In this document: positions 34,712 through 61,442 of the stretch, piece after piece
Position numbering within the stretch: position 1 is the stretch's first letter
Layout of the letters: the number at the start of each line of letters is the position of its first letter
Virus record (IMG/VR): IMGVR_UViG_3300045988_087130
Span: 25,785 to 89,784 of that record
Direction: 5' to 3' (one strand)
Length of the DNA: 64,000 nucleotides
Source: a virus
Made by a program: the position numbers and the translations under genes
Notes under the pieces: model-generated
Told to the model about the DNA's origin: nothing
The model's input: only the letters and a program-made list of their open reading frames with translations
Database searches by the model: none

Positions 34712-34743
34712 TTTGCAAGTGTGAAATAAAATGCTTATCTTTG
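34712..34743 (+). promoter_or_regulatory. sigma-A-type promoter of the tRNA operon (TTTG-N20-TAtcTTTG)
   Basis: TTTG 34712, TAtcTTTG 34736; about 140-nt leader before tRNA-Glu. Confidence 0.45.
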
Positions 34744-34888
34744 CATCGTGTTTGAAACAGATGGCCTTCAATGAGGTTTCTTCTACCATAATAAGTCAAG
34801 ACTTAGGAGTTTACGGCATGGTTTCCAGGTTATCCTGCCCAGCTAGACTATAACAAGGCAACTCTAATTAGGGTGAGAATCCCTAGAT

Positions 34889-34961
34889 GCTGCATTAGAC
34901 AAGTGGTTAAGTCGCCAGTTTTTCACGCTGGTATTCAAAGGTTCGAATCCTTTATGCAGTA
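34889..34961 (+). tRNA. tRNA-Glu (anticodon TTC)
   Basis: Hand-folded: acceptor GCTGCAT/ATGCAGT, anticodon stem CCAGT/GCTGG with loop TTTTCAC, T-arm AAAGG-TTCGAAT-CCTTT. Confidence 0.6.
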
Positions 34962-34967
34962 CAAATT

Positions 34968-35038
34968 TGCCCTATGGTGTAATGGCAACACTACAGGTTT
35001 TGGTTCTGTCATTAGTGGTTCGAATCCGCTTGGGGCAA
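34968..35038 (+). tRNA. tRNA-Gln (anticodon TTG)
   Basis: Acceptor TGCCCTA/TGGGGCA, anticodon stem ACAGG/TCTGT with loop TTTTGGT, T-loop TTCGAAT. Confidence 0.55.
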
Positions 35039-35069
35039 CAAGGTGATATTTGATATGTATTCCACAAAT

Positions 35070-35154
35070 GGTGCAATATTCAAGCGGCTAAAGAAGACTG
35101 ACTGTAAATCAGTTCCCATTGCGGGTTCGGTGAGTTCGAATCTCTCTTGCACCA
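35070..35154 (+). tRNA. tRNA-Tyr (anticodon GTA), type II with long variable arm
   Basis: Acceptor GGTGCAA/TTGCACC; D-loop AGCGGCTAAA; anticodon loop CTGTAAA; variable arm CCC-ATTGC-GGG; T-loop TTCGAAT; 85 nt. Confidence 0.65.
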
Positions 35155-35178
35155 CAAGAGTAACTTTGTCAGATTACG

Positions 35179-35250
35179 GGGAATGTAGCTCAGAAGTAGA
35201 GCACTTGGTTCGTAACCAAGGGGGCATTGGTGCAACTCCAATCATTCCTT
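35179..35250 (+). tRNA. tRNA-Thr (anticodon CGT)
   Basis: Acceptor GGGAATG/CATTCCT, D-arm GCTC-AGAAGTA-GAGC, anticodon stem CTTGG/CCAAG with loop TTCGTAA; unusual T-loop TGCAACT. Confidence 0.5.
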
Positions 35251-35253
35251 TAC

Positions 35254-35325
35254 GCTTTCGTAGCTCAGTGGCAGAGCATAGGATTTTTAATCCTAGGGTC
35301 GAAGGTTCGAATCCTTCCGTTGGCA
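35254..35325 (+). tRNA. tRNA-Lys (anticodon TTT)
   Basis: D-arm TAGCTCAGTGGCAGAGC, anticodon stem TAGGA/TCCTA with loop TTTTTAA, T-arm GAAGG-TTCGAAT-CCTTC; acceptor stem has two internal mismatches, so ends are uncertain. Confidence 0.5.
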
Positions 35326-35498
35326 CAATGATACACAAGAAGAGAGCCGTGATGTTTGTTCTGTTGGAATCTCGGACATCTGTCAACGGATAACGTAGGA
35401 AGCAGATGGGGCGAATAAAGTTGTGAATAAGCTTATGAACTAGGGAAGCAAGCGGAATGGCCTCTTTTTTGTGCTTCATTTGATGGTTTAACGAAAAA

Positions 35499-35777
35499 TT
35501 GAAGAATATGAAAAGTCCGTTAAGAATGGCAGTCGCTTTAGAAAAGAACAACAAGGTATATCCAAAAGATGTACGGAAGTTCTTGATGGGATTGTACGCC
35601 ACGCTGCATTTGACAGATAACGCAACGGCTAAAGATATGGAAAAGCTGGTATATTATGCTTTTCGGAACGGTTACCTGCTAGGTGTCAAGTCTGAAGGAG
35701 GTGATGACCAAAAAGCGTATGACCGACTGCCGGATTTGGGAGTAGAAGAAGATATTGGTGATGATTCAAGAAGATAG
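35499..35777 (+). CDS. hypothetical protein
   Basis: 92-aa ORF after the tRNA cluster. Confidence 0.35.
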   Translation: MKNMKSPLRMAVALEKNNKVYPKDVRKFLMGLYATLHLTDNATAKDMEKLVYYAFRNGYLLGVKSEGGDDQKAYDRLPDLGVEEDIGDDSRR

Positions 35778-35813
35778 TTGATAAAATTTGGTAATTAGTT
35801 AGTAAAGTTTTTT

Positions 35814-35846
35814 AGGCTTTGGTGTGTGAACATCGAAGCCTTTTTA
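35814..35846 (+). terminator. rho-independent terminator
   Basis: AGGCTT-TGGTGTGTGAACATCG-AAGCCT followed by TTTT. Confidence 0.55.
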
Positions 35847-35909
35847 TATATAATAAGGTAAAATAAAAGCTGAAATGTTAACAAGACCCATATATCAGTT
35901 ACGAAAGGT

Positions 35910-35975: not shown

Positions 35976-36025
35976 CAATCAAGATAAGTTGGTTGATTTG
36001 CCGAGTGACAAGTTTCACTCAATAA

Positions 36026-36068: not shown

Positions 36069-36076
36069 AATTGATT

Positions 36077-37006
36077 ATGTCTAAGCAGACTGGTTTTTCA
36101 TTCGCAAGTTCAAAGAAGTCATTAATCGAGACTATTGACGAAATCAAGAAGTCAAAGATGCCTCGCAACGAAAAGATTGTTGCATTGAAGGCTTGCGGTC
36201 TTCGTGAGAAAGAAATCTCCGATATGTTGAAGGTTTGTGTACCAAGCGGTTCAACTTCAACGAGATTCGTTTATACATTCGGTGTTGAGATTGAATGTGT
36301 TCATGCCGAGCGCAATGCCTTGATAGAGGCGGGTCGTCAGAATGGTGTTGATATTCATTCTGAGGGCTATAACCACACCGACAACAAGAGTTATTTCAAG
36401 ATTGTTAGTGATTCTTCAGTTGGTGGTGATGTTGACCCTAACGAGGTTGTAAGTCCGGTATTGAATGGCAATACAAATGGTATGGCAACTTTGAAGAAGG
36501 CTATCAAGTCTTTGGATGCCGTAGGTGCAAGAGTAAATTCTACTTGTGGCCTTCACGTTCATATCGGTGCAGCAAAGTTGACAGGTGAGCAATATGTTAA
36601 CGTCTTCAAGAATTATCAGAAGCTTGAAAGATTGATTGATAGCTTCATGGCTCCTTCAAGAAGAGGCAATTGCCGTTGGGCAGCCAGCTTGCTTGACAAA
36701 GATTTCTCTAATTGCCGTGGCAATTACGATATTAGACGTAATGTATTTCATGGAGACAGATATTACAAGGTCAATGCAGAGAGTTTTGCACGTCACAAGA
36801 CTATCGAGTTTCGCCAGCATCAAGGTTCAACTAATTACAAGAAGATTGAAATGTGGGTTAAGTTCTGCGCAAAGCTTGTCGGTTGGTCTCGTAACAATGT
36901 CTTCACTAGTGAGGTTATGAACATCGAAGATATACCTTTCTTGAATAAAGAAGAAAAGGCTTTCTTCCAGAGCCGTAAGGATGCATTTGCAGCCAATAAC
37001 GACTAA
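36077..37006 (+). CDS. putative amidoligase (Amidoligase_2 family, glutamine-synthetase-like fold)
   Basis: FGVEIEC (E-x-E metal site) and CGLHVHIGA motifs typical of the phage Amidoligase_2 family; first ATG at 36077. Confidence 0.55.
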   Translation: MSKQTGFSFASSKKSLIETIDEIKKSKMPRNEKIVALKACGLREKEISDMLKVCVPSGSTSTRFVYTFGVEIECVHAERNALIEAGRQNGVDIHSEGYNHTDNKSYFKIVSDSSVGGDVDPNEVVSPVLNGNTNGMATLKKAIKSLDAVGARVNSTCGLHVHIGAAKLTGEQYVNVFKNYQKLERLIDSFMAPSRRGNCRWAASLLDKDFSNCRGNYDIRRNVFHGDRYYKVNAESFARHKTIEFRQHQGSTNYKKIEMWVKFCAKLVGWSRNNVFTSEVMNIEDIPFLNKEEKAFFQSRKDAFAANND

Positions 37007-37080
37007 TTGATGTAGTCCTAGGGTAAAACCCCTAGGACACAAAAATCAAGTATTACTAAGAAAAAAGAAAGGGTAAAGAT

Positions 37081-37614
37081 ATGTGTGTTATTATTGTATG
37101 TCCGAAAGGTACTACTTTGCCATCCGTTGATGAGCTGAAGGCAGCGTATATGAGAAATCCCGATGGTTGCGGATTTGTGAGTGAGTCTGACCATTATAAG
37201 AGCTTGCATTTCTCTACATTTATACGTAGATTGATGAAGCGAGATATAAATGAGAATGTAATCATACATTTTAGATTTGCTACTCATGGTTCTGTCTGTG
37301 TCAAGAATTGTCATCCGTTCTACAAGGCTGGTTATTGGTTCGCCCATAATGGAGTGCTCCCGATCTGCTCCGAGCATGATAAAACGGATAGTCAGATTTG
37401 CTTTGAACGTTTCATTTATCCTACTATCAAGAAATATGGTTGGGGTTCTGATGAACATATGAAAGAAATGAATAAATGGACAGCTCATGGTTCTAAGTTT
37501 GCAATGTTGCATAATGGTGAGATTTTGAAGTCCGGTAAATTCATAGAGCGTGATGGACGGTTCTATTCTAATTTGAATCATTTGGGTTATATGAGAAATG
37601 TCATAAACTTTTAG
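37081..37614 (+). CDS. class-II (Ntn) glutamine amidotransferase domain protein
   Basis: N-terminal MC (Cys2 nucleophile) and HFRFATHGSVCVKNCHPF matching the GlmS-type H.R.AT.G....N.HPF motif. Confidence 0.55.
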   Translation: MCVIIVCPKGTTLPSVDELKAAYMRNPDGCGFVSESDHYKSLHFSTFIRRLMKRDINENVIIHFRFATHGSVCVKNCHPFYKAGYWFAHNGVLPICSEHDKTDSQICFERFIYPTIKKYGWGSDEHMKEMNKWTAHGSKFAMLHNGEILKSGKFIERDGRFYSNLNHLGYMRNVINF

Positions 37615-37839
37615 ATATTTTAATGTTTAGGTTCTTTTTAATTCGACAAGCGTCAGATGTCCGTGAGGATATTTGGCGTTTTTTTTTGTTATATAAGGCG
37701 TTTTATTTTGTGTTGCAATTAATTATTCATTTTTGTGATAAAATAGCCTTAAATCGCTTATAAATACCCTTATTACTCACTTTTAACCAAAAGTGAGATA
37801 CCTGCAAACGCTTTAATGCATTAATTGCTTTTTTCGTAT

Positions 37840-37847
37840 TATCTTTG
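37840..37847 (+). promoter_or_regulatory. -7 element TAtcTTTG of a sigma-A-type promoter
   Basis: TAtcTTTG 29 nt upstream of ATG 37876. Confidence 0.4.
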
Positions 37848-37875
37848 CACTAGTTTTAACAAATATATCGAAAGA

Positions 37876-38733: not shown

Positions 38734-38745
38734 AAATTGAAAAAC

Positions 38746-44265: not shown

Positions 44266-45295
44266 ATGTCTTGCTTCTGTTGCGGAGGTGGCAGTTCCTT
44301 TGGTTATAAGTTAGCTGGCTACGATGTTGTAGCCTGTAACGAGATAGACCCAAAGGTTATGAAGATGTACTTGAAGAATCACGATGTCAAGTATTCTTTC
44401 AATTGTGATATTCGTGAGCTGATTGCCAATATCAATATAGGGGGGGCATATTATGAAAGAAGAGTTGCATAATCTGGATATATTGGATGCTAGTTTCCCA
44501 TGTTCGGTATTCAGTATTGCAGGTGACCGCCAAAAGGCTTGGGGAAAGGAAAAAGTATTCCGAGAAGGTCAGAAAGCACAAAGGCTTGACGATTTGGCTT
44601 TTTACTCAATCGCCCTCGCTCAAGAACTACAACCAAAGGTAGTGGTTTTTGAGAATGTCCAAGGTTTGTTGCAAGGTGAAGCTATCGAGTACGTGAAAGA
44701 GATTTACAGGCAGATGGATAATGCCGGATATATCTTGCAGCATTGGTTGCTTAATGCACGTAATATGGGTGTTCCTCAGAATCGACCTAGGGTGTTCTTT
44801 CTAGGATTACGCAAAGACCTTTGCAAGCCGTTTATGGTTCAGAAGGATTTGTTCGAGCGAGTGCCTAAGATAGATATGGACTTCAACGAGAAAGAAATTG
44901 TCTTGGATGAGTTTTCGGACTATAGTGGAAGACAGATTCCAAAAGGAGTGATGAAGTATTGGGAGCATAGAAACGAGAAAGACAATTCTATCGGTGATAT
45001 TGTCAAACGGATGGATAATCGTCTTTCTATGTTCAATAATATGTTTCTTAAAAAGGATAAAGTATGCAATACTATATCAGCAATGGAAGATAGGCTTGTG
45101 TATTTTGATAATCCAAGTTATATTTCAGCGCATGATACGATTTTAGCATCAACATTCCCGATGGATTATGACTTTAATGGCATGAAACCTTGGTTTGCTT
45201 GCGGAATGTGTGTTCCTCCAGTTATGATGGCTAATGTAGCTACGAGAATCTGGGATTGTTGGTTGTCAAAGATTAAAAAGGAGGAATGCGCATGA
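44266..45295 (+). CDS. DNA (cytosine-5)-methyltransferase interrupted by a frameshift at a G7 tract
   Basis: Motif I FCCGGGSS in ORF 44188-44472; motifs IV FPCSVFSIAG, VI ENVQGLL, VIII QNRPRVFF in ORF 44453-45295; the frames join if the G run 44440-44446 has 6 or 9 G. Confidence 0.7.
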
Positions 45296-46029
45296 TAACA
45301 GCAAGTATGAATTCGGGTGAGATGCGTAGGGTACGAAACTTAGATGAAGCTAGAATCTATGAGTTTCAGATGCGAAAAGCTAATGAGCTTAAACGTGAAA
45401 TGAGAAAGCAGAGTGTAAGACAGATAACCAAGACATACGAATTGGTTACACGGAATGCCGATTATTTCATCGTTGTAGGTGTAAAGCATGGAGGTGTCTT
45501 TGTCTCAGGTGTATTCATTTATCTGAAGGAAACTAACGAGTATATTCCTATGAGCAGAAATGAGGGGTATAGCGAGGATTGTTTTGCTATGAGCGTTCAT
45601 TTTCTGAAGAGATATGCAGAAAGGTATTTGAAAAAGGATTTGCCGATAGCAAAGATATTACAAAAGATATATACATCGTTTACAGGTGCGGTTCAGCTTT
45701 ATAGTGACGACAAGACAAAAAGGGTGGTGTTTGCTATTCCGGAAGGGCTTATACTCACAGAATACGAGCAAGAAAAGCGTATCATCCACTACAAAACCTT
45801 TGTAAGCATGGATATGCTAAAGAAGACACAAATGCAAAGTTACGAGAAGATTAGTGCATTTCTAATGGAATCATGTCAGCAAATAGCTATGGCAAGAGAA
45901 GCAGGAAATGACGAAAAGCTGGGCGTTGTGTACAGAAGGTTTTATGATGATATTGATTTGATAGATACAAAGGAGGCGCAAGCCATATATTCAAGTTTCT
46001 TCGAAAAAGGAGGTAACAATGAAAGATAA
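45286..46029 (+). CDS. hypothetical protein overlapping the C5-MTase stop (candidate restriction partner, unproven)
   Basis: 247-aa ORF starting 10 nt inside the MTase gene end; no recognisable motif. Confidence 0.4.
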   Translation: MRMITASMNSGEMRRVRNLDEARIYEFQMRKANELKREMRKQSVRQITKTYELVTRNADYFIVVGVKHGGVFVSGVFIYLKETNEYIPMSRNEGYSEDCFAMSVHFLKRYAERYLKKDLPIAKILQKIYTSFTGAVQLYSDDKTKRVVFAIPEGLILTEYEQEKRIIHYKTFVSMDMLKKTQMQSYEKISAFLMESCQQIAMAREAGNDEKLGVVYRRFYDDIDLIDTKEAQAIYSSFFEKGGNNER

Positions 46030-46522
46030 ATGTATAACAAGGTTTCTAGGTGATATTAAGCCTATAGAGAATTACGAAAGGTATTATGTTAGCAAGCTGG
46101 GACATGTCTTTACTATTGGGAGAACGTCTCAATTAAAGGAAATCGCACCTTGCAAGACACCAAAAGGTTATTTGAAGGTATGGCTTTACAAGAACGGAAA
46201 GCGAAAGATGTTCTATGTTCATCGTTTGGTAGCGCAGGCATTCTTGGAGAATCCAGATGCGTTGCCGATGGTGAATCATAAGGATTTCGACAAGACGAAT
46301 AACGATGTAGATAACTTGGAGTATTGTACCGCAAGATACAATGTGATTTATTCTGCTATAGCAAAGAAAACCTCTTCCGAATACTTGGGTGTGACTTGGA
46401 ATAAGAGTGTAAGAAAATGGCAAGCTCAGTACCAGGTAGGTAAGAAGAAAACTTATATCGGATGCTTTGGTACGCAAGAAGAGGCTCACGAAGCTTATGT
46501 TAACGCTATAAAAGAGATTTGA
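46019..46522 (+). CDS. HNH homing endonuclease (HNH_3) with AP2 DNA-binding domain
   Basis: VNHKDFDKTNNDVDNLEY (H-x-D...NN...NLE HNH_3 core) and YLGVTWNKSVRKWQAQYQVGKKKTYIGCFGTQEEAHEAY (AP2). Confidence 0.65.
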   Translation: MKDKCITRFLGDIKPIENYERYYVSKLGHVFTIGRTSQLKEIAPCKTPKGYLKVWLYKNGKRKMFYVHRLVAQAFLENPDALPMVNHKDFDKTNNDVDNLEYCTARYNVIYSAIAKKTSSEYLGVTWNKSVRKWQAQYQVGKKKTYIGCFGTQEEAHEAYVNAIKEI

Positions 46523-46523
46523 C

Positions 46524-47237
46524 ATGCTTAAATTTGATAGAATATACAATTCCGACTGTATAGAAGGAATGAAGCAAATAGGGAGTGGGGATGTCAATTT
46601 AATTGTTACTGACCCACCATATTGTATCTCCTATAAGACCGGATGGAGAGCAGACGACCATCGTTTTTCGAAGGAAATACTCAATGACGATAATGAGCAA
46701 TTGATTATTGATTATATGAGCGAATGCTACCGGATATTGAAGGATGATAGTGCCGCTTACGTCTTTTGTTCAGCTAAGACCTTGGACTTTTTTATGCAAC
46801 AAGCTAGGAACGCAGGGTTTACCATTAAGAATGTGCTCATTTGGCGAAAGAACAACCATACGGCTGGAGATTTAGAGGCGCAATATGGGCAATGTTACGA
46901 GCCAATCCTGTACTTGAATAAAGGCAGACGAACCATAAACGGAAAGCGTTTGGAGGACGTATGGGACTTTGATAGAGTTCCATCTGATAAATTGGTACAT
47001 CAGAATGAGAAACCAATTCCCTTGCTTATGCAATGCATCTTGAAATCATCGGACGAAGGAGATTTGGTATTTGATGGTTTTATGGGTTCAGCAAGTACTG
47101 CTCTGGCTTGTATGCGTACAAACAGGAATTTCCTTGGCTTTGAGTTAGACGGGGAATATTTCAAGGTAGCACAAAAAAGAATCAAAGAAGAAATGTTTAA
47201 TCAAAAAGATATGTTTGGATATGCTGGAGATAGATAA
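46524..47237 (+). CDS. beta-class N6-adenine/N4-cytosine DNA methyltransferase
   Basis: N-terminal catalytic TDPPY, C-terminal SAM site FDGFMGSASTALAC. Confidence 0.75.
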   Translation: MLKFDRIYNSDCIEGMKQIGSGDVNLIVTDPPYCISYKTGWRADDHRFSKEILNDDNEQLIIDYMSECYRILKDDSAAYVFCSAKTLDFFMQQARNAGFTIKNVLIWRKNNHTAGDLEAQYGQCYEPILYLNKGRRTINGKRLEDVWDFDRVPSDKLVHQNEKPIPLLMQCILKSSDEGDLVFDGFMGSASTALACMRTNRNFLGFELDGEYFKVAQKRIKEEMFNQKDMFGYAGDR

Positions 47238-47967
47238 GATTTATCAAGTTGATTGTCTGGATGGTATGAGCAAGATTGATGACAAGTCCGTCTCGCTTAT
47301 ACTCACAGACCCTCCATATGAAATTTCAAGGGATTCCAATTATGCAAAGTCCGCTCCTACTGGTAAAGATACTGATAGATTCCGCATATCTATCGACTTT
47401 GGAGACTGGGATAAACAGGAAGCATTTGATATAGGCTCTATGATAAAAGAATCCTACAGGTGCTTGAAAGATGGTGGATATATAGTTTGTTTCTATGATT
47501 TGTGGAAGATTGGGGTCGTAAAGGATGCGATGATTAATGTCGGATTTAAACAAATTAGATTTATAGAATGGATAAAAACAAATCCTGTTCCAATAAATAG
47601 TAAGACAAACTATCTCACAAACGCAAGAGAGGTCGCTGTGTGTGGGGTGAAAGGTAAAAATCCTATCTTTAAAAGCGAATATGACAATGGAGTATATAGC
47701 TTTCCAATCTGTCGTGATAAGGGGAGATTTCATCCTACCCAGAAGCCTGTTAGTCTTTTCAGAAGCATTATAAACAAGCATTCCTGCAAAGGAGATATTG
47801 TACTAGATTGCTGTATAGGTAGTGGAACTACGGCTATTGCGTGTATTCAAGAAAATCGTAATTTTATTGGTTTTGAAACTAATAGAGAGTTTTACGACAA
47901 AGCAAACGAGAGAATAGAAAATGAATTAATGATAAAGCAAGATAGTTTATTTAGTAATGAAAGTTAG
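47215..47967 (+). CDS. beta-class N6-adenine/N4-cytosine DNA methyltransferase
   Basis: TDPPY motif; C-terminal LDCCIGSGTTAIAC. Confidence 0.75.
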   Translation: MDMLEIDKIYQVDCLDGMSKIDDKSVSLILTDPPYEISRDSNYAKSAPTGKDTDRFRISIDFGDWDKQEAFDIGSMIKESYRCLKDGGYIVCFYDLWKIGVVKDAMINVGFKQIRFIEWIKTNPVPINSKTNYLTNAREVAVCGVKGKNPIFKSEYDNGVYSFPICRDKGRFHPTQKPVSLFRSIINKHSCKGDIVLDCCIGSGTTAIACIQENRNFIGFETNREFYDKANERIENELMIKQDSLFSNES

Positions 47968-48692
47968 TGGGTGATATGATGGAGCTAAATAGAATTTATC
48001 AAGGTGATTGCCGAAAGCTTCTAAAGCAGCTAGACGATGAATGTATAGACCTAGTATGCTCTGATGTTGCTTATCCGGTACAAGCTAGAGGTGGGCGCAG
48101 TAGTATGAGTGGATATTGGACGGATTCTCAAACTAGAAAAGGTAAGATATTCAAGAGTAATGACATAGATATTTCGGAGTATATCAACGAACTATATCGA
48201 GTACTAAAGGATAAGACTCATTGCTATCTTATGTGTAACGACTATAATCTGATGCACTTTCTAAATGAGATAGGACGGAGTGAGTTTCACTTCACAAAGT
48301 GTTTAATATGGGATAAATGCACTAAGGTGTGTGGAACGTATTATATGAACCAAAAAGAGTATATCATTATGCTTCGTAAGGGAGGTGGAAAGCCAATTAA
48401 TGAGTTTGGCACATCTGACATTCTGAGTGTTCCTATTCCAACCAACAAACGCAGGGATAAAGAAGGATTGATCAATCAGACCGAAAAACCAGTTAAGTTG
48501 ATGGAGATTCTAATCAGAAACTCAACAAATGTAGGTGATGTTGTTCTTGACCCATTTATGGGGAGTGGCACAACAGCAAGGGCTTGCGTTAATCTTGAAA
48601 GAAAGTATATAGGCTTCGAAATAGACCAGCGGCAAGTAGATTTTTCCAATAACGAATTAAAGAGCATGAGTAGGCAATTAAGTCTGTTTTAA
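47967..48692 (+). CDS. beta-class DNA methyltransferase homolog with atypical catalytic motif SDVAY
   Basis: Aligns with its neighbours (CSDVAY in place of TDPPY); C-terminal LDPFMGSGTTARAC is intact. Confidence 0.6.
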   Translation: MGDMMELNRIYQGDCRKLLKQLDDECIDLVCSDVAYPVQARGGRSSMSGYWTDSQTRKGKIFKSNDIDISEYINELYRVLKDKTHCYLMCNDYNLMHFLNEIGRSEFHFTKCLIWDKCTKVCGTYYMNQKEYIIMLRKGGGKPINEFGTSDILSVPIPTNKRRDKEGLINQTEKPVKLMEILIRNSTNVGDVVLDPFMGSGTTARACVNLERKYIGFEIDQRQVDFSNNELKSMSRQLSLF

Positions 48693-48696
48693 AACA

Positions 48697-48921
48697 ATGG
48701 ATATGAGTATGGTTATTCAATGTAACACAGTTGTAAGAAATGGGAATAAAGAGATAACGGATGCTCTTATAAAAGCCATTAAGGATGAAGCCTCGAAGCG
48801 TGGGTTGGTACGTGATGAATTGGTTGAATATTGCAACCAATTGTTAAGGAAAGGCGAAATCAAGGCTTGTATTAAGAATTTGTTTTATAATTTCAAACGT
48901 TATTTTTGGAGGTATTATTGA
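48697..48921 (+). CDS. hypothetical protein
   Basis: 74-aa ORF. Confidence 0.35.
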   Translation: MDMSMVIQCNTVVRNGNKEITDALIKAIKDEASKRGLVRDELVEYCNQLLRKGEIKACIKNLFYNFKRYFWRYY

Positions 48922-48922
48922 T

Positions 48923-49552
48923 ATGAGAAGAAGAAAGTTGAACAAGTCTCCAGTGTTAGGATTCTGCGGATTTGTTATCGGTTACGAGTGCAAGGAAAAG
49001 GGAATAAAGCTGATGGAGTGCGATAAGGCGCAAGCAGATGCAATCATAGTTCCTCATCACTTTTCACACAAGGTAACGAAGAATAGTTGCTTGAATCTTT
49101 TGGTATTGTATAAGGATAAGATAAGGGGTGCAATGCAAATAGGGTATGGAATCCGACCGCACATCAAGACTGAAAAGGGCGAAGTGTTGGATTACCATCA
49201 AGTGAGGGAATTTGACAGAATGTGGTTGTCTGATGATATGCCAAAGTTTAGTGAGACGATTTGCCTATCTCTTTTGCATAAGTATATTAGGGCAACACAT
49301 AAGGAAATCAAGTACCTTATATCTTATGCCGATACGTCCATAGGTAACAAGGGAACTATATATAAAGCAGCAAACTATGAGCATATTGATACCATTAAGG
49401 CAGATTTCTATGTGTTACCAAGTGGTGAGCGTGTGCATCCGGTTACTATGTGGCATCGGCACAAGACAAGAGCATGGGAGGTTCTAACGGAACTATACCC
49501 AGGAATAAAAAAGGCAGAAGGGTTTCAACTTAAATTTCTAAAGAAGTTATGA
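48923..49552 (+). CDS. hypothetical protein embedded in the methyltransferase array
   Basis: 209 aa; no recognised motif; sits between MTase paralogs. Confidence 0.4.
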   Translation: MRRRKLNKSPVLGFCGFVIGYECKEKGIKLMECDKAQADAIIVPHHFSHKVTKNSCLNLLVLYKDKIRGAMQIGYGIRPHIKTEKGEVLDYHQVREFDRMWLSDDMPKFSETICLSLLHKYIRATHKEIKYLISYADTSIGNKGTIYKAANYEHIDTIKADFYVLPSGERVHPVTMWHRHKTRAWEVLTELYPGIKKAEGFQLKFLKKL

Positions 49553-49764
49553 AGAAAAGAAATAAATATATTCCTTGTCATTTGCATCCAGATTCTGAGC
49601 ATTGGGTTAGAAAGGGGGACTCTTGGAAAGCAAAGATTGCTTACGAATCCGAGGAGGATGCTTGGGAGTTTCTGAACCAGCGATCCGAACTGAAGGCGAT
49701 TGGGTATGTGGCGTATCAATGTAAGACTTGCCATTTCTGGCACGTGGGGAGAAAACTATCGTGA
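49549..49764 (+). CDS. small zinc-ribbon-like protein
   Basis: CHLH...H and a C-terminal CKTCHFWH Cys/His pair. Confidence 0.35.
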   Translation: MKKRNKYIPCHLHPDSEHWVRKGDSWKAKIAYESEEDAWEFLNQRSELKAIGYVAYQCKTCHFWHVGRKLS

Positions 49765-49798
49765 AATGGTTTAACTGATAGAAATAGATTTATAGAAG

Positions 49799-50569
49799 AT
49801 GGAATTAAATAAGATATATAATGAGGATTGTCTAGTGGGAATGAAACAGATTCCGGACGCAAGTGTGGATTGTATTATCTGCGATTTGCCGTATGGTGCT
49901 CTCAATAAAAAGAGTGAGGGCGGTGGCTGGGATAGCATTATTCCGTTTGAACCATTGTGGAAGGAATATCTGCGCATAACCAAACCAAATGCAGCCATTA
50001 TTCTTTTCTGTCAAGGTATGTTTACCGCACAGCTTATGATGTCGCAGCCGAAACTCTGGAAATATAATCTTATTTGGAGCAAGCAGCGGGTAACAGGCTT
50101 TTTGAATGCCAACAAGATGCCTCTGCGCTCACATGAGGATATTGCAGTATTCTATCGGAAACAACCTATCTACAATCCTCAGATGGTAAAATGTGCGCCA
50201 CATCAAAGGAATCATCGAAGGGGCGATGGCTCTCATAGTTTGAAGCGAGGTTGTTATGGCGATCATAAAGAAGTGCCTACTATCATATCAGATGAGAAAT
50301 TCCCAAAGAGCATTATCTGCTTCGACAAAGAACATTCTGCCAACACCTTCCACCCCACTCAAAAGCCAGTCGCTCTTATTCAGTACCTCATCCGTACCTA
50401 CTCCAACGAGGGCGACACCATCTTAGACAACTGCATGGGCAGCGGTACTACCGCTATCGCAGCCATCCGTGAAAAGCGAAATTTCATCGGGTTCGAGTTA
50501 AATAAAGAATATTACGACAAGGCTTGTAAGCGCATTAAGTTAGAAATTATGCAACCCAGCCTATTCTAA
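49799..50569 (+). CDS. beta-class N6-adenine/N4-cytosine DNA methyltransferase
   Basis: CDLPY catalytic motif; C-terminal LDNCMGSGTTAIAA. Confidence 0.75.
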   Translation: MELNKIYNEDCLVGMKQIPDASVDCIICDLPYGALNKKSEGGGWDSIIPFEPLWKEYLRITKPNAAIILFCQGMFTAQLMMSQPKLWKYNLIWSKQRVTGFLNANKMPLRSHEDIAVFYRKQPIYNPQMVKCAPHQRNHRRGDGSHSLKRGCYGDHKEVPTIISDEKFPKSIICFDKEHSANTFHPTQKPVALIQYLIRTYSNEGDTILDNCMGSGTTAIAAIREKRNFIGFELNKEYYDKACKRIKLEIMQPSLF

Positions 50570-55520: not shown

Positions 55521-55552
55521 TTTGGCTATATGAAAATATTGTTTTACCTTTG
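55521..55552 (+). promoter_or_regulatory. sigma-A-type promoter (TTTG-N20-TAccTTTG)
   Basis: TTTG 55521, TAccTTTG 55545; the track ORF start 55550 lies inside the promoter, so ATG 55598 is taken as the start. Confidence 0.45.
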
Positions 55553-55597
55553 CACAATAAAAAATGGCATATATGGAATAATAAAAACAATCAACTT

Positions 55598-56128
55598 ATG
55601 AAGACGGACGCATTAGCTGTAGCCAATTACTTTATAGAATTGGCACAGAAAGAAGATAAGCCTATACATTTGTTAGGCTTGGTTAAACGTGTGTATATAG
55701 CGCACGGTTTTTCTCTTGCTTTGAATCATAGGGGATTGATAAATCCTAGATTTGACAAGGTTGAAGCATGGAAGTATGGTCCTGTTATACCATCTGTGTA
55801 TCATACATTCAAGCAACAACAACATACAGCAAATGAAATCAAGGATTTTGCTACAAATATGGTTTGGGACGAGAATAATTTCAAGCCAGATTGGGTTACT
55901 CCAAAGCTAGAAAATACAGAAGACAAAAAGGTTGTAGAGCTTGTGTGGAAAAGATACAAGAGTTTTAGTGATTCTGAATTAGTATCTCTAACACATAAAA
56001 AGGGTACTCCATGGTTTCTATGCTACATTGAGAATGAAAATGTGCCAATTCCAGACGAATTGACTACAGTTTATTACAAGCAATTAATTGAAAATATAGT
56101 TAATGCGCATGAAAGAAAATCTGTATGA
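55598..56128 (+). CDS. Panacea-domain (DUF4065/SocA-like) protein, putative antitoxin
   Basis: LGLVKRVYIAHGFSLALNHRGLINPRFDKVEAWKYGPVIPSVYHTFK fits the DUF4065 core (K..KLlYy..gw.La..g.pLF.e.feAW..GPV.p.vY). Confidence 0.6.
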   Translation: MKTDALAVANYFIELAQKEDKPIHLLGLVKRVYIAHGFSLALNHRGLINPRFDKVEAWKYGPVIPSVYHTFKQQQHTANEIKDFATNMVWDENNFKPDWVTPKLENTEDKKVVELVWKRYKSFSDSELVSLTHKKGTPWFLCYIENENVPIPDELTTVYYKQLIENIVNAHERKSV

Positions 56129-58260: not shown

Positions 58261-58262
58261 TT

Positions 58263-58475
58263 ATGGCAGCATGGTTAGCAGTTGATAAAAATGGTACAGA
58301 ATGTATCTATGCAGTAAAGAAACCTATTAGAGGTAAAGACAAGTGGGGTCCAGATTCATGGGACTATCGTTATGACTATGCTTTCTATGATTTCGTTGAA
58401 CTCCCCAAAGGCAGCATTAAGAAACTCATCGGAAGAGGGCTTACTTGGAGTGATGAACCAGTAGAATTAAAATAA
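58263..58475 (+). CDS. hypothetical protein
   Basis: 70-aa ORF. Confidence 0.4.
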   Translation: MAAWLAVDKNGTECIYAVKKPIRGKDKWGPDSWDYRYDYAFYDFVELPKGSIKKLIGRGLTWSDEPVELK

Positions 58476-58940
58476 AAAAGGAGGTGTCTCCAGTGAGCAC
58501 CTCCCCGAAAGAGTTAAAACGTAAGCTTACGATTTACTTGTTGATAAAGAAGTGGAATGGTTTACCATGAGCGTACTCAATAGTACCATCCTTTCTGCGA
58601 CGAGACCAACAGAAAACTTCAGTACCACTCTCTTTCTTTTGCAAATTAGAAAACATATGAGGCAACAACCTCCTTTCTGGCATTATACCCAAAAGCGGAA
58701 TTGCTTTGAGCACCTTGCATGGAGCCGCCATACAAAGAAAAACCCCAGCACTGGACTGGGGAAAATGTCTTTCGAGCGGAGGGCTAGGAGACTTTTATTG
58801 TTGGCGATTTCGCCAGGAGGCTGTTTACCTCGTTTCTAATTTGCGCTGCAAAGGTAGTGATTATTTTAATAACAATATCAATAACAAAGTTAATAAAGTA
58901 AAAACAACAGTCTATTTAGACTTTATATAAACATATAAAT

Positions 58941-59327
58941 ATGAAAGTAGAAAATATCAAGTTCAAGGCTAAGCGTCTTGATGGCAAAGGATGGGTTGAA
59001 GGTAGTCTAATCAGAAGTACTACTGGGATAAAGGAAAGAGCCTACATAGTAGATAACTTTAGCAGTATGAGCGATTATAGTGTTATTGGTGTTGACCCTT
59101 CTACTGTCTGTCAGTTCACAGGGCTGAAAGACTGTGAGGGCAAAGAGATTTGGGAAGGAGACATAGTGGAGCGTGTGATATATGACCTATGTAAGGGTTC
59201 TGCCAAGGTAAAAGCAGTAATCGAATATTTGGACGGAGCATTTGTAGCTATTACTGATGGAATACCTTATTCTTTATACTTTAAGTATATTAAGGTAGTT
59301 GGCAATAAATTCGGTAAGGAGGAGTAG
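58941..59327 (+). CDS. hypothetical protein
   Basis: 128-aa ORF. Confidence 0.4.
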   Translation: MKVENIKFKAKRLDGKGWVEGSLIRSTTGIKERAYIVDNFSSMSDYSVIGVDPSTVCQFTGLKDCEGKEIWEGDIVERVIYDLCKGSAKVKAVIEYLDGAFVAITDGIPYSLYFKYIKVVGNKFGKEE

Positions 59328-59330
59328 CGT

Positions 59331-59591
59331 ATGATAAAAACAATATTAGAAAAAGTATCTAAAAAGCTGAATGCTTTAGCTGCTAAGGTGTTTAAGAAAG
59401 AGACTTATCCGTATCCTCCTCTTTCAAGAAGAGAACGAAGAAAGTTTGAACGTGACAACAAAAAGGCTGAGAAGAATATAGCATTATGTCGTAGATGTAT
59501 GAAGGATGCTCCTAGTTGGTGGTGTCCAGGAGAACGTTGTTATTTCTTCCCTTACCGAAAACATGTATTATTTGGAGACAAAAATAAGTAG
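59331..59591 (+). CDS. hypothetical basic protein
   Basis: 86 aa; R/K-rich with CRRC..C..C cysteines. Confidence 0.4.
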   Translation: MIKTILEKVSKKLNALAAKVFKKETYPYPPLSRRERRKFERDNKKAEKNIALCRRCMKDAPSWWCPGERCYFFPYRKHVLFGDKNK

Positions 59592-59594
59592 CGT

Positions 59595-59897
59595 ATGGAA
59601 AAGAAGTTTGAAGAGATAGTTGCGGAAGGCAATATAGTTGTGATAGATGATTGTGGTTATTGGATTGTGTTATGCAAATGTTGGAAACCAGAATACCACA
59701 ATCTGTTCTGCTATCTTTATCTCAGTAAGAATAGTAAAAATTTGATGGTAGGTTCTCATTTTACAATGACAGAGGATAAAAAGAAATCTACTCGGTTGGC
59801 TACCAACGAGGAGCGTCTTATGCTTTTTGAAGAAATGTTCAAGTATGGCATTGCTCTCAATAAGCAAGAGCATCATCTGATAGGTAAGTTGTGGTAA
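59595..59897 (+). CDS. hypothetical protein
   Basis: 100-aa ORF. Confidence 0.4.
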   Translation: MEKKFEEIVAEGNIVVIDDCGYWIVLCKCWKPEYHNLFCYLYLSKNSKNLMVGSHFTMTEDKKKSTRLATNEERLMLFEEMFKYGIALNKQEHHLIGKLW

Positions 59898-59916
59898 TTG
59901 AAAGATAAAATAGCGT

Positions 59917-60219
59917 ATGAAGATTAGATTGGCAAAGAAAATAATGAAGCATAAATGTACTTTCCTCGATTTAGAAGAGAAGTACAAAAAGAAAGGGTAT
60001 AATGTCAAGTGGTTGCTTGCAATGGCATCTTACGATAAAAGAAAGAGGTGTCGGAATGCCTTACCATTCGACCACCGCATCACAAAGGCGATAAACCTTA
60101 GCGCAAAGTGCAAAGCAAGGGATATTCTTCACGATATAGAGAAGAACGGTTGCCGAACTCCTTTTAACCAAAAGAATGTAGAATCTTGCAGACGTAAGGT
60201 TGAAGGTTATAAAGTTTAA
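59917..60219 (+). CDS. hypothetical protein
   Basis: 100-aa ORF. Confidence 0.4.
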   Translation: MKIRLAKKIMKHKCTFLDLEEKYKKKGYNVKWLLAMASYDKRKRCRNALPFDHRITKAINLSAKCKARDILHDIEKNGCRTPFNQKNVESCRRKVEGYKV

Positions 60220-60239
60220 CAATTAAAAAGAAATGAGAT

Positions 60240-61442
60240 ATGAATGAGTTTACAAAGGTCTTTGCAAAGACAATAGAAGATGAAGCTATCAAGCAGATAG
60301 AAGTTCTATCCAATAGCGATGCTTACTCTGGTTGTGAAATAAGAATAATGCCAGATTGTCACGCAGGTAAAGGCTGTACTATTGGCACGGTGATAGAGCT
60401 GGACAAAAGAGTAGTTCCTAACACCGTAGGAGTAGATATAGGTTGCGGAATGAAAGTCGTTAGACTTGGTAAAGTTAATATTAATCTACAGAAATTTGAC
60501 GAAGCAGTCAATACGTTGATTCCGTCTGGTTTTAATATCAACGAAGAAGCTTCTGCATACATACATGGATTAGTTGACGGCAATATGTTTGGTAAATTTC
60601 GTTCTTGGGATAGTATTAATGGGATGGATATAGTATATCGTTCTGTTGGTTCTCTTGGCGGTGGCAATCACTTTATTGAGTTAGATGCAAATGAAGAAGG
60701 AGAGAAGTTTCTTGTGATACATACAGGAAGTAGAAACCTTGGTGTTAGGGTATGCAACTATTACCAAAAACTTGCCTACGAGTATTGTCGTAAGAAAATA
60801 GCAGATAAGTCTGAGGTTATTGCCAAGTTGAAAAGCGAAGGAAGAGAAAAGGAAATACAGAGTGCTATAAAGTTGTTAGGTACTAGAGATATTAGCAAGG
60901 AACTTTCTTACTTGGAGGGCGATTTGCTTGATGATTACTTAAATGATATGCGTATAGTTCAGAAGTATGCCGAGCATAATAGAAGAATTATAGCTAACAG
61001 ACTCGTCAATGCTCTAGGTGTGGATATTGACCCAAATTCAGACAAGCATTCTTTTACAACTATTCACAACTATATAGATACAGACAAGGGCATATTGCGA
61101 AAAGGAGCTATCAGTGCAAAGAAAGACGAGATTGTCATTATTCCTATGAATATGCGTGACGGTTCTCTTATCTGTAAAGGTAAAGGAAACAAGGAATGGT
61201 TATGCTCAGCCCCACATGGCGCAGGTAGATTAATGTCTCGTACACAGGCAAAGAAAGAGTTATCTATGGATTCTTACAAGAATGAAATGAATGGTATCTA
61301 TTCCACATCAGTTTGTGAAGAAACCATTGATGAAGCACCTATGGCATACAAACCAACCGAAGAGATTGTTGAGCTAATAAAACCTACGGTTGATGTGATA
61401 GATGTTATTAAACCAATTTACAACTTTAAAGCAAAATTATAA
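60240..61442 (+). CDS. rtcB: RtcB-family RNA ligase (short form)
   Basis: RtcB hallmarks MPDCHAGKG, VGVDIGCGM, GGGNHFIEL, HNYID, SAPHGAGR all present. Confidence 0.75.
   Translation: MNEFTKVFAKTIEDEAIKQIEVLSNSDAYSGCEIRIMPDCHAGKGCTIGTVIELDKRVVPNTVGVDIGCGMKVVRLGKVNINLQKFDEAVNTLIPSGFNINEEASAYIHGLVDGNMFGKFRSWDSINGMDIVYRSVGSLGGGNHFIELDANEEGEKFLVIHTGSRNLGVRVCNYYQKLAYEYCRKKIADKSEVIAKLKSEGREKEIQSAIKLLGTRDISKELSYLEGDLLDDYLNDMRIVQKYAEHNRRIIANRLVNALGVDIDPNSDKHSFTTIHNYIDTDKGILRKGAISAKKDEIVIIPMNMRDGSLICKGKGNKEWLCSAPHGAGRLMSRTQAKKELSMDSYKNEMNGIYSTSVCEETIDEAPMAYKPTEEIVELIKPTVDVIDVIKPIYNFKAKL

What the first reader, a model, noticed from the sequence alone, without database searches (positions are those of the whole stretch)
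34712..61442. Five-tRNA operon (Glu-Gln-Tyr-Thr-Lys) plus a compact RtcB RNA ligase: a likely anti-anticodon-nuclease toolkit
Seen in sequence: tRNAs hand-folded at 34889-35325 behind their own promoter, two with oddities (T-loop TGCAACT in tRNA-Thr; two U-U mismatches in the tRNA-Lys acceptor stem). A 400-aa RtcB with all catalytic motifs lies at 60240-61442. Established knowledge: RtcB reseals tRNA halves with 2',3'-cyclic phosphate and 5'-OH ends produced by anticodon nucleases (PrrC, RloC, colicin-like), and phage tRNAs can replace cleaved host tRNAs. Lys, Glu, Gln and Tyr are frequent nuclease targets. Inference: these genes jointly counter a host tRNA-cleaving defence.
Basis: partly seen in the sequence, partly recalled or inferred. 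Interest (0 to 1): 0.5.

Follow-up and report, generated by a model that had tools for sequence, protein, structure and literature searches.

The report
Gut phage tRNA operon plus RtcB ligase
A human-gut Bacteroidota phage really does carry five tRNA genes and an intact RtcB RNA-repair ligase, but they are two separate modules 25 kb apart, a known kind of phage equipment; the odd fourth tRNA, whose anticodon loop differs between closely related phages, is the part worth following up.

Summary
Observation confirmed. ARAGORN and Rfam both call five tRNAs at 34889-35325 (Glu-UUC, Gln-UUG, Tyr-GUA, Thr-CGU, Lys-UUU) behind a Bacteroidota-type promoter. ORF 60240-61442 is a full-length RtcB with every catalytic residue. 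Both reported oddities are real.

Interpretation partly supported. Phage tRNAs and RNA ligases as counters to tRNA-cleaving defences are an established idea. RtcB lies in a counter-defence-rich region: DNA methyltransferase array, Mom-like, Panacea antitoxin-like. Nothing links RtcB to the tRNAs. They are 25 kb apart with separate promoters. RtcB relatives in prophages have no tRNA within 10 kb, and Bacteroides phage BS-TP1 has no tRNA in its whole genome. RtcB's conserved partner is a small Tad2-like protein (78/80 relatives; also adjacent in BS-TP1). Lys and Glu are the phage's commonest residues, so plain supply also explains those tRNAs. At 400 aa, RtcB is the normal length for its clade.

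New: the "tRNA-Thr" has a non-canonical elbow (A18/G55) and U73. Among 79 relatives sampled independently of the tRNAs, 84% carry an 8-nt anticodon loop, while the stems stay paired. CGU is the rarest allele and ACG the rarest Thr codon. The function of this tRNA is unresolved.

The parts
34712..34743 (+). Bacteroidota-type promoter (-33 TTTG, 20 nt, -7 TAtcTTTG) of the tRNA transcription unit
   Evidence: the motif occurs 16 times in the window against 2.0 expected; 0 of 100 shuffles reach 16. Sequence.
34744..34888 (+). 5' leader of about 145 nt, with no significant structure
   Evidence: folding z-score +0.97; moderately variable among relatives; no Rfam match.
34889..34961 (+). tRNA-Glu (UUC)
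   Evidence: 64.4 bits. Anticodon loop invariant in 109 relatives.
34968..35038 (+). tRNA-Gln (UUG), with U1:A72 and G at position 37
   Evidence: 53.3 bits..
35070..35154 (+). tRNA-Tyr (GUA), bacterial type with a long variable arm
   Evidence: 49.7 bits. Compensatory double changes in the anticodon stem among relatives.
35179..35250 (+). Slot X: non-canonical tRNA, here with a 7-nt loop and Thr anticodon CGU (35211-35213). D-loop has A18 G19, T-loop is UGCAACU (G55), pair 1:72 is G-U, discriminator is U73.
   Evidence: 64.2 bits. Anticodon-loop polymorphism in relatives. Cloverleaf 99.5% paired in 18 variants. No similar tRNA in 50,697 phage records outside this lineage.
35254..35325 (+). 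tRNA-Lys (UUU) with fixed U4:U69 and U5:U68 mismatches in the acceptor stem
   Evidence: 66 bits. Identical in 100 of 109 relatives.
35326..35475 (+). Structured trailer RNA of about 150 nt, closed by a long helix and ending in a U run (35465-35470). Probably the terminator of the unit, possibly an unknown ncRNA.
   Evidence: z = -3.48, 0 of 200 shuffles fold as well; 98.2% of cells paired in 14 variants, three pairs with changes on both sides; no Rfam match.
55521..55552 (+). Nearest Bacteroidota-type promoter motif upstream of rtcB
   Evidence: No further + strand match between 55552 and 60240.
55550..56128 (+). Panacea (SocA-like antitoxin) domain protein, first gene after that promoter
   Evidence: PF13274, 65.9 bits (cut-off 25.7).
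60240..61442 (+). RtcB RNA ligase, 400 aa, all catalytic residues present
61442..61645 (+). Tad2-like (DUF2829) protein of 67 aa. Its start overlaps the rtcB stop (ATGA).
   Evidence: PF11195, 41.7 bits (cut-off 25); the only PDB matches are Tad2 proteins (E 0.003-0.2); at the same offset in 78 of 80 relatives; central cassette hypervariable.
61710..62360 (+). HNH/NUMOD homing endonuclease inserted after the RtcB/Tad2-like pair. The start at ATG 61710 is inferred; the longest ORF starts at GTG 61527.
   Evidence: NUMOD4, HNH_3, NUMOD1.. Absent from all 80 relatives.
44453..50569 (+). Context: array of DNA methyltransferases, an HNH endonuclease and a Mom-like DNA-modification gene (anti-restriction region lying between the two modules)

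Best explanation
The span holds two independent accessory modules of a human-gut Bacteroidota phage, probably of Segatella/Prevotella. Both most likely protect the cell's translation capacity during infection.

Module 1 is a self-contained tRNA transcription unit: its own promoter, a leader, five tRNAs and a structured U-tailed trailer. Glu, Gln, Tyr and Lys are ordinary elongator tRNAs kept by purifying selection. They supply decoders for heavily used residues, and they may stand in for host tRNAs that a defence nuclease destroys. The fourth gene is a structurally intact but non-canonical tRNA. Its anticodon loop is being reshaped within the phage population, so it is probably under a selective pressure other than plain decoding.

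Module 2 lies 25 kb downstream in a region full of counter-defence genes. It is a translationally coupled pair of RtcB and a Tad2-like protein. RtcB is a catalytically complete GTP/Mn-dependent ligase. It joins 2',3'-cyclic-phosphate or 3'-phosphate ends to 5'-OH ends. It therefore most likely reseals tRNAs and other RNAs cut by metal-independent RNases, such as anticodon nucleases, HEPN effectors and toxin RNases.

Shown here: the genes, their integrity, their conservation and their neighbours. Inferred: the substrates, any host nuclease, and any cooperation between the two modules.
For: - tRNA calls and structure.
- Promoter.
- The operon is present in 79 of 79 relatives that were chosen through the neighbouring amidoligase gene, not through the tRNAs.
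- Compensatory changes in tRNA-Tyr, and fixed U:U mismatches in tRNA-Lys.
- RtcB domain and catalytic residues.
- RtcB is conserved at a median 94% identity. The adjacent Tad2-like gene is at 51%, with conserved ends and at least five unrelated central cassettes.
- The RtcB/Tad2-like adjacency recurs in Bacteroides phage BS-TP1, whose RtcB is only 51% identical. It recurs weakly in a prophage.
- Surrounding counter-defence genes: five methyltransferases plus a Mom-like gene and a Panacea domain protein.
- RtcB homologues occur in 689 of 50,697 phage records.
- Literature: phage tRNAs neutralise PARIS, retron-Eco7 and VapC-type tRNases (PMC11464382, PMC11555353, PMC10264068). Phage RtcB has been proposed to religate cleaved tRNAs (PMC7824862).
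- Slot X: 66 of 79 relatives have 8-nt loops. Its anticodon loop is enriched for polymorphism (5 of 8 columns against 13 of 65 elsewhere, Fisher p = 0.019; against 2 of 21 in the Glu, Gln and Tyr loops, p = 0.008). Its stems stay 99.5% paired.
Against: - No tRNA-cleaving host system, host tRNA sequence or cleavage product could be examined.
- The only host clue is that the phage operon was binned into a Segatella copri MAG, and also into a Saccharibacteria MAG.
- The paper searches turned up no experimental test of a phage RtcB as a counter-defence.
- Lys (10.1%) and Glu (7.9%) are the phage's most used residues, so simple supply explains two of the five tRNAs.
- The Tad2-like protein is 67 aa against about 89 aa for solved Tad2 proteins. 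Only its N-terminal part and a short C-terminal motif align, not the central region, so sponge activity is not assured.
- Metal-dependent tRNases such as PARIS AriB cleave tRNA only with Mg2+ (PMC11464382). From general knowledge, such enzymes are expected to leave ends that RtcB cannot join.
Confidence: 0.5

Rival explanations
1. One reading: the five tRNAs and RtcB form one toolkit against the same host anticodon nuclease. The tRNAs replace cleaved species, and RtcB reseals the halves.
For: Both modules are stable in the lineage: the operon in 79 of 79 relatives, and at least 22 contigs carry both modules. Glu, Gln and Lys are the three xm5s2U34 tRNAs (PMC5400242), and Lys and Tyr are documented nuclease targets (PMC11464382, PMC11555353, PMC13096335). 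T4 sets a precedent for repair of cleaved tRNA-Lys (PMC10264068).
Against: The modules are 25 kb apart with separate promoters. No tRNA lies within 3-10 kb of RtcB (the flank examined at each locus) in the ten other loci. BS-TP1 has RtcB plus a Tad2-like gene but no tRNA in 111.7 kb. RtcB's conserved partner is the Tad2-like gene, not a tRNA.
Confidence: 0.2
2. Ordinary translational supply. The tRNAs only boost decoding of codons the phage uses heavily, and RtcB is general RNA housekeeping with no role in defence conflicts.
For: Lys is 100.8 and Glu 79.2 codons per 1000, the two highest. UUN anticodons read the A-ending codons favoured by a phage of 38-40% GC. The four canonical tRNAs are unremarkable; tRNA-Lys resembles tRNAs in 538 phage records.
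Against: Gln (34 per 1000) and Tyr (44 per 1000) are not in high demand. ACG, the only codon read by CGU, is the rarest Thr codon (17%) and is absent from the major head gene. Supply does not explain the 8-nt loops or the A18/G55 elbow of slot X. RtcB sits among counter-defence genes.
Confidence: 0.25
3. RtcB and the Tad2-like protein form a functional pair against signal-activated RNase effectors (type III CRISPR, CBASS or Thoeris-like systems). The small protein soaks up the nucleotide signal, and RtcB repairs the RNA already cut. The tRNA operon is unrelated.
For: The genes overlap (ATGA) and are adjacent in 78 of 80 relatives. They are also adjacent, in the opposite order, in the distant phage BS-TP1. 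The Tad2-like centre is swapped among at least five cassettes, which looks like an arms race. Tad2 proteins sequester TIR- and cGAS-made signals (10.1101/2023.11.15.567273). Cellular RtcB expression is controlled by a CARF-domain regulator that responds to damaged tRNAs (PMC7790460).
Against: Adjacency could simply reflect a shared accessory island. No Tad2-like gene lies next to RtcB in four Firmicutes phages or in L209 and L211. Ligand binding is untested. No paper in the library links DUF2829 with RtcB.
Confidence: 0.15
4. Slot X is a decaying tRNA pseudogene. Its oddities and polymorphism are neutral drift.
For: It lacks the G18/U55 pair and has U73 and a G1-U72 pair. The anticodon loop varies in length and sequence. 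A few rare alleles break a stem pair, or delete a stem base as in L223.
Against: The gene is present in 79 of 79 relatives. 99.5% of stem cells stay paired, and every common stem polymorphism preserves pairing. A18, G19, G55 and C56 are invariant. Variation is concentrated in the anticodon loop, not spread evenly. The same G55-type T-loop, with the same D-arm, occurs in unrelated tRNA arrays.
Confidence: 0.12

Closest known systems
Phage T4 Pnkp plus Rnl1 repair of PrrC-cleaved host tRNA-Lys
   Same: A phage-encoded RNA-repair activity proposed to reverse anticodon-nuclease damage. tRNA-Lys(UUU) is involved in both cases.
   Different: T4 uses end-healing (kinase-phosphatase) followed by an ATP-dependent ligase. 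Here a single RtcB would seal 2',3'-cyclic-phosphate and 5'-OH ends directly with GTP. No PrrC-like nuclease is known for this host. Neither a Pnkp nor an Rnl gene turned up among the window ORFs that were scanned.
Phage T5 tRNA-Lys against PARIS, and T5 tRNA-Tyr against retron-Eco7 (PMC11464382, PMC11555353)
   Same: Phage tRNA genes for Lys and Tyr that could replace depleted host species.
   Different: T5 resistance maps to anticodon stem-loop substitutions relative to the host. Here the host tRNAs are unknown, and the fixed peculiarity of tRNA-Lys lies in the acceptor stem (two U:U mismatches). PARIS AriB is metal-dependent, so RtcB would probably not repair its cuts.
RtcB of large tRNA-rich phages (jumbo phages, mycobacteriophages, Bastille-like Bacillus phages; PMC7824862)
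   Same: The same Pfam family, similar length (about 380-414 aa), carried as an accessory gene. 689 phage records have a homologue.
   Different: This protein is at most 51% identical to any in a cultured phage. It falls below every NCBIfam subfamily cut-off. It is paired with a Tad2-like gene.
E. coli rtcBA RNA-repair operon with the RtcR regulator (PMC7790460)
   Same: The same ligase chemistry is expected from conserved catalytic residues.
   Different: Neither RtcA nor RtcR turned up among the window ORFs that were scanned, and the gene is phage-borne.
Tad2 (SPO1 Gp34.65; DUF2829) Thoeris anti-defence sponge
   Same: The Pfam Tad2-like domain scores above the gathering threshold. The only PDB sequence matches are Tad2 proteins.
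   Different: 67 aa against about 89 aa. The central segment is replaced among relatives. Binding is untested.
Frameshift-suppressor tRNAs with 8-nt anticodon loops (SufB2, sufJ) and yeast mitochondrial tRNA-Thr1
   Same: Most relatives' slot-X alleles have an extra nucleotide in the anticodon loop next to a Thr (GGU) or Pro (UGG) anticodon.
   Different: Those are laboratory mutants or an organellar tRNA. Here the 8-nt loop is the majority natural allele in a phage population. The window's own allele has a normal 7-nt loop. No dependent frameshift site was found.

Membership tests
tRNA (Rfam RF00005) | Cloverleaf scoring above the family gathering score | tested here: met
   All five score 49.7-66 bits against 29. 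ARAGORN agrees.
tRNA (canonical elongator) | Elbow contacts G18-U55 and G19-C56 | tested here: not met
   This applies to slot X only: it has A18 and G55, with G19 and C56 kept. The other four tRNAs have GG in the D-loop and a UUCGAAU T-loop.
tRNA (canonical elongator) | Seven-nucleotide anticodon loop | tested here: met
   Met by all five tRNAs in the window. For slot X it is not met in 66 of 79 relatives, which have 8-nt loops.
Bacterial tRNA-Thr | ThrRS identity set: G35 and U36, plus acceptor pairs G1-C72 and C2-G71 (E. coli rules, recalled from memory) | tested here: inconclusive
   G35 and U36 are present. The acceptor has G1-U72 and G2-C71, and the discriminator is U73. The identity rules for the host are unknown. 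One allele in relatives carries UGC.
RtcB RNA ligase (PF01139) | Full-length domain match | tested here: met
   217 bits, profile positions 14-425 of 426. phrog_1075 'tRNA splicing ligase', 438 bits.
RtcB RNA ligase (PF01139) | Metal ligands (Asp, Cys, three His) and the guanylylated His | tested here: met
   D66, C69, H144, H161, H276 and H326 are invariant. They align to P. horikoshii D95, C98, H203, H234, H329 and H404. The Pho numbering was checked by counting for D95, C98, H203 and H234. H329 and H404 were assigned from the AHN and CHGAGR motifs plus memory.
RtcB RNA ligase (PF01139) | GTP/Mn2+-dependent joining of 3'-phosphate or 2',3'-cyclic-phosphate ends to 5'-OH ends | not testable with these tools
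   Needs a biochemical assay.
Release-factor-H-coupled RtcB (TIGR03073) and PRK09588 equivalog | Score above the curated cut-off; a prfH neighbour | tested here: not met
   113.5 bits against 271.8, and 140.8 against 407. No release-factor domain in the neighbours.
Tad2 / DUF2829 anti-Thoeris sponge | Pfam Tad2-like domain above the gathering score | tested here: met
   41.7 bits against 25, profile positions 2-73 of 73.
Tad2 / DUF2829 anti-Thoeris sponge | Sequestration of gcADPR or cyclic nucleotides | not testable with these tools
   The protein is shorter than solved Tad2 proteins, and the PDB matches are weak (E 0.003-0.2).
Phage anti-anticodon-nuclease system (T4 or T5 type) | A cognate host tRNA-cleaving defence, with cleavage during infection | not testable with these tools
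   The host is not identified beyond MAG binning. No expression or cleavage data are available.
Phage anti-anticodon-nuclease system (T4 or T5 type) | Phage tRNAs differ from host tRNAs at the nuclease recognition or cleavage site | not tested
   No host tRNA sequence was available. The single genome-collection scan returned only the phage operon itself.
Joint tRNA plus ligase toolkit | Genetic linkage or co-distribution of the ligase with the tRNA genes | tested here: not met
   25 kb apart with separate promoters. RtcB occurs without nearby tRNAs in ten other loci. It occurs without any tRNA in the complete BS-TP1 genome.

The most novel reading that the evidence does not exclude
Slot X (35179-35250) belongs to a class of phage tRNAs with a rebuilt elbow (A18/G55) whose anticodon loop is under diversifying selection in the human gut. 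Alleles switch between 7-nt Thr loops (UGU, CGU) and 8-nt loops (C/U/A-U-UGGU-AA, CUAUGCAA, AUUUGUAA) on an otherwise conserved cloverleaf. Such a tRNA could be a bait or competitive inhibitor for an anticodon-loop-directed defence nuclease. It could instead be a nuclease-proof decoder that tolerates an extra base. It could also be a natural quadruplet or +1-frameshift decoder. If the first or second reading holds, the tRNA operon would be a population-level record of a tRNA arms race. RtcB and its cassette-swapping Tad2-like neighbour would be a second such record.
Probability: 0.2. Interest if true: 0.8.

Novelty: new member of a known kind. Interest (0 to 1): 0.42.

Why it matters
Why phages carry tRNAs is a 50-year-old question, now being answered case by case in E. 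coli and mycobacteria. Nothing comparable is known for the dominant gut Bacteroidota.

This lineage is abundant in human gut metagenomes: the first-pass viral-collection scans alone matched 132 (RtcB), at least 120 (tRNA-Lys core) and 270 (amidoligase) stretches. It offers a small fixed tRNA set, and one member's anticodon loop is visibly polymorphic in nature. It also offers a conserved RtcB whose neighbour swaps cassettes.

If a cultivable host such as Segatella copri can be found, the system would allow direct tests of two questions. Are tRNA-cleaving defences active in gut Bacteroidota? Do phage RtcB ligases really act as counter-defence? The paper searches here turned up no experimental test of the second question.

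Tried and rejected
1. I looked for extra or degenerate tRNAs or known ncRNAs in the leader and trailer with a permissive Rfam search. Only chance-level hits appeared. The leader shows no structure signal.
2. I tested whether relatives with 8-nt slot-X alleles carry a gene that needs a +1 frameshift. Indels not divisible by three were compared between 7-nt and 8-nt genomes over roughly 28-44 kb and 52-64 kb of the window. No 8-nt-specific frameshift appeared, only paired indels in divergent stretches. The rest of the genome was not covered.
3. I tried to find host tRNAs or a host through an exact 34-nt tRNA-Lys core in 185,579 species genomes. Only two MAG bins matched, and both hold the phage operon itself. 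The host therefore stays tentative, and no host/phage tRNA comparison was possible.
4. I tried to place RtcB in a curated subfamily. It falls below all NCBIfam cut-offs.
5. I looked for RNA-repair partners (RtcA, archease, Pnkp, Rnl, CCA-adding enzyme, PrfH) among about 60 ORFs of the window, using Pfam and PHROGs. None was found. Some short ORFs were not scanned.
6. I tested whether the RtcB/Tad2-like adjacency is general. It is not seen in four Firmicutes phages.
7. A sigma-70 promoter scan found nothing useful at the operon; the Bacteroidota motif fits instead.
8. I rejected 'compact RtcB' as a distinguishing feature.
9. A rigorous presence/absence matrix of RtcB against the tRNA operon was not possible, because the collection scans return truncated lists.

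Full report
**What the window is.** All long ORFs lie on the + strand, and GC content is 35-44%. The region 34-42 kb is 95% identical to an unannotated 'Bacteriophage sp.' contig from human faeces, MT835576.1. Each of the first-pass viral-collection scans matched well over a hundred stretches from close relatives. PHROGs and Pfam give a tape-measure-like protein, a major head protein, anti-repressors and many methyltransferases. The Bacteroidota promoter motif TTTG-N18-21-TAnnTTTG occurs 16 times against 2.0 expected. The phage operon was binned into a Segatella copri MAG, and also into a Saccharibacteria MAG, so this host clue is weak.

**Checking the observation.** ARAGORN and Rfam agree on five tRNAs at 34889-35325, in the order Glu-UUC, Gln-UUG, Tyr-GUA, Thr-CGU, Lys-UUU. 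Both reported oddities are real.

- The fourth tRNA has the T-loop UGCAACU, so position 55 is G. By alignment to the Rfam consensus, its D-loop carries A18 G19 rather than G18 G19. Its 1:72 pair is G-U and its discriminator is U73.
- tRNA-Lys has U4:U69 and U5:U68 mismatches. These are unchanged in 100 of 109 relatives, although the acceptor stem was not part of the search pattern. They are therefore a fixed trait.

The ORF at 60240-61442 is a full-length RtcB (Pfam 217 bits). D66, C69, N143, H144, E147, H161, H276, H326, R330 and K371 are invariant in a 12-sequence alignment reaching down to 55% identity. They align with the metal-binding, GTP-binding and guanylylation residues of P. horikoshii RtcB. 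The word 'compact' is not warranted: the 120 best homologues are mostly 380-414 aa. RtcB homologues occur in 689 of 50,697 phage records.

**Anatomy of the tRNA unit.** The promoter is followed by a leader of about 145 nt without structure signal (z = +0.97), then the five tRNAs. After them comes a trailer of about 150 nt that folds much better than shuffled sequence (z = -3.48, 0 of 200 shuffles). The trailer keeps 98% of its predicted pairs in 14 variants, with three pairs changed on both sides (two of them in one helix), and it ends in a U run. No Rfam family matches the leader or the trailer. None of the tRNA genes encodes CCA.

I chose relatives through the neighbouring amidoligase gene, not through the tRNAs. 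In that sample 79 of 79 informative loci carry the same five-slot operon. tRNA-Tyr shows compensatory double substitutions in its anticodon stem. These are maintained, functional genes.

**The fourth slot.** In the unbiased sample of 79 relatives:

- 58 have an 8-nt anticodon loop that ARAGORN reads as 'UGGU'.
- 4 have UUUGGUAA.
- 4 have CUAUGCAA.
- 11 have a normal Thr-UGU loop.
- 2 have the window's Thr-CGU.

Two further 8-nt loops, AUUGGUAA and CAUGGUAA, appeared among the 121 loci selected through the tRNA-Lys core. A metagenome scan added AUUUGUAA, and one allele with a stem deletion that is then called tRNA-Pro (UGG). It also showed mosaic backbones, so loop length is not simply clade-bound.

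Across 18 distinct alleles, 99.5% of stem cells remain paired, and every common stem polymorphism preserves pairing. A18, G19, G55 and C56 never vary. Polymorphism is concentrated in the anticodon loop: 5 of 8 columns against 13 of 65 elsewhere (p = 0.019), and against 2 of 21 in the Glu, Gln and Tyr loops (p = 0.008).

The tRNA has no blastn relative in 50,697 phage records outside its own lineage, whereas tRNA-Lys matches tRNAs in 538 records. The same D-arm with a G55-type T-loop occurs in unrelated tRNA arrays, as a Phe-GAA in L231 and a Pro-CGG in L268. The elbow is therefore a recurring design rather than damage.

Codon demand does not explain the window's allele. ACG is the rarest Thr codon (17%) and is absent from the major head gene. 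I found no gene with an 8-nt-allele-specific +1 frameshift in the roughly 30 kb that the fetched loci cover. The function of slot X stays open. It looks like a structurally constrained tRNA whose anticodon loop is under unusual selection.

**Context of RtcB.** The nearest upstream promoter motif is at 55521-55552. It is followed at once by a Panacea (SocA-like antitoxin) domain protein. Further upstream lies an array of methyltransferases and a Mom-like gene.

The rtcB stop overlaps the start of a 67-aa Tad2-like (DUF2829) ORF (PF11195, 41.7 bits). Its only PDB sequence matches are Tad2 proteins. This pair occupies the same relative position in 78 of 80 relatives. RtcB is 94% identical on the median, and the small protein only 51%. 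The small protein keeps its first 23 residues and its last 10 or so, while the centre is exchanged among at least five unrelated cassettes.

In Bacteroides phage BS-TP1, the closest cultured carrier (RtcB 51% identical), a 239-aa protein with a Tad2-like domain (67 bits) lies immediately upstream of RtcB. In a prophage with a 73%-identical RtcB, the downstream small gene has a weak Tad2-like match. Four Firmicutes phages show no such neighbour. An HNH/NUMOD homing endonuclease follows the pair in this window only (0 of 80 relatives).

**Are the tRNAs and RtcB one toolkit?** Both are stable in the lineage, and at least 22 contigs carry both, about 25 kb apart. They are nevertheless separate transcription units.

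RtcB also travels without tRNAs. No tRNA lies within 3-10 kb of RtcB (the flank fetched for each) in ten loci from other phages and prophages. The complete 111.7-kb BS-TP1 genome has none at all. In two prophages RtcB sits at the prophage end, next to the integrase or to chromosomal genes, like a moron.

Lys and Glu are the two most used residues of the phage, so supply is a sufficient reason for two of the tRNAs.

The literature supports each half of the idea separately:

- Phage tRNAs neutralise PARIS, retron-Eco7 and VapC-type tRNases (PMC11464382, PMC11555353, PMC10264068).
- Septu cleaves tRNA-Tyr (PMC13096335).
- Glu, Gln and Lys share the xm5s2U34 modification (PMC5400242).
- Phage RtcB is proposed to religate tRNAs cut by metal-independent RNases (PMC7824862).

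My searches found no experimental demonstration for a phage RtcB. They also found no paper linking DUF2829 with RtcB, and none describing natural phage tRNAs with 8-nt anticodon loops.

The finding as submitted is a new member of a known kind and of moderate interest. Three by-products deserve follow-up more than the original claim does. The first is the polymorphic, non-canonical fourth tRNA. The second is the conserved RtcB/Tad2-like pair with a cassette-swapping partner. The third is the structured trailer RNA.

Noticed in passing
window 35179-35250; relatives L082-L206, L219-L268, L272-L351: The anticodon loop of the fourth tRNA is polymorphic among close relatives: 84% carry 8-nt loops (mostly CUUGGUAA), others carry UGU, CGU or CUAUGCAA. 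The cloverleaf and the A18/G55 elbow stay conserved throughout.
   Followed up: yes
window 35326-35475: A structured RNA of about 150 nt lies directly after tRNA-Lys (z = -3.5; 98% paired in 14 variants, with compensatory pairs). It ends in a U run and matches no Rfam family. It may be a terminator or an unknown ncRNA.
   Followed up: partly
window 61442-61645; L001-L080: The Tad2-like protein keeps its N-terminal 23 residues and its C-terminal DILATDWEEV, but its centre is swapped among at least five unrelated cassettes in relatives. The adjacent RtcB stays about 94% identical.
   Followed up: partly
L214 7134-9170 (Bacteroides phage BS-TP1, PQ571274.1 85269-87305): A crAss001_48 plus Tad2-like fusion protein lies immediately upstream of RtcB in a phage whose RtcB is only 51% identical. 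This suggests a recurrent RtcB/DUF2829 linkage in Bacteroidales phages. BS-TP1 has no tRNA genes.
   Followed up: partly
window 61710-62360: An HNH/NUMOD homing endonuclease is inserted between the Tad2-like gene and the next gene. It is absent from all 80 relatives. In a few relatives the Tad2-like ORF is fused to that next gene.
   Followed up: partly
window 44453-50569: A dense array of five DNA methyltransferase genes, an HNH endonuclease and a Mom-like DNA-modification gene. It is presumably an anti-restriction block.
   Followed up: no
window 55550-56128: A Panacea (SocA-like antitoxin) domain protein lies directly behind a Bacteroidota promoter motif. It is a possible phage-borne neutraliser of host toxin-antitoxin defences.
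   Followed up: no
window 36071-38733: A cluster of an amidoligase, a glutamine-amidotransferase-like gene and genes of unknown function lies between the tRNA operon and the major head gene (39216-40304).
   Followed up: no
window 29637-30938: A 433-aa transposase-family ORF (phrog_506) sits inside the phage genome.
   Followed up: no
window 34968-35038 and the tRNA 3' flanks: tRNA-Gln has G rather than A at position 37. Four of the five tRNAs are followed by CAA where CCA would be, and none encodes CCA.
   Followed up: no
L231 (SDBV01336206.1) and L268 (Ga0075163_10009172): Unrelated dense tRNA arrays (10 tRNAs in 1.3 kb; 28 in 13 kb) contain tRNAs with the same D-arm and a G55-type T-loop (Phe-GAA with TGCAATT; Pro-CGG with TGCGATT).
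   Followed up: no
L211, L212, L213: RtcB homologues of 61-73% identity sit at the very end of integrated prophages, next to the integrase or to chromosomal genes, after a gene-free gap of about 880 nt.
   Followed up: no
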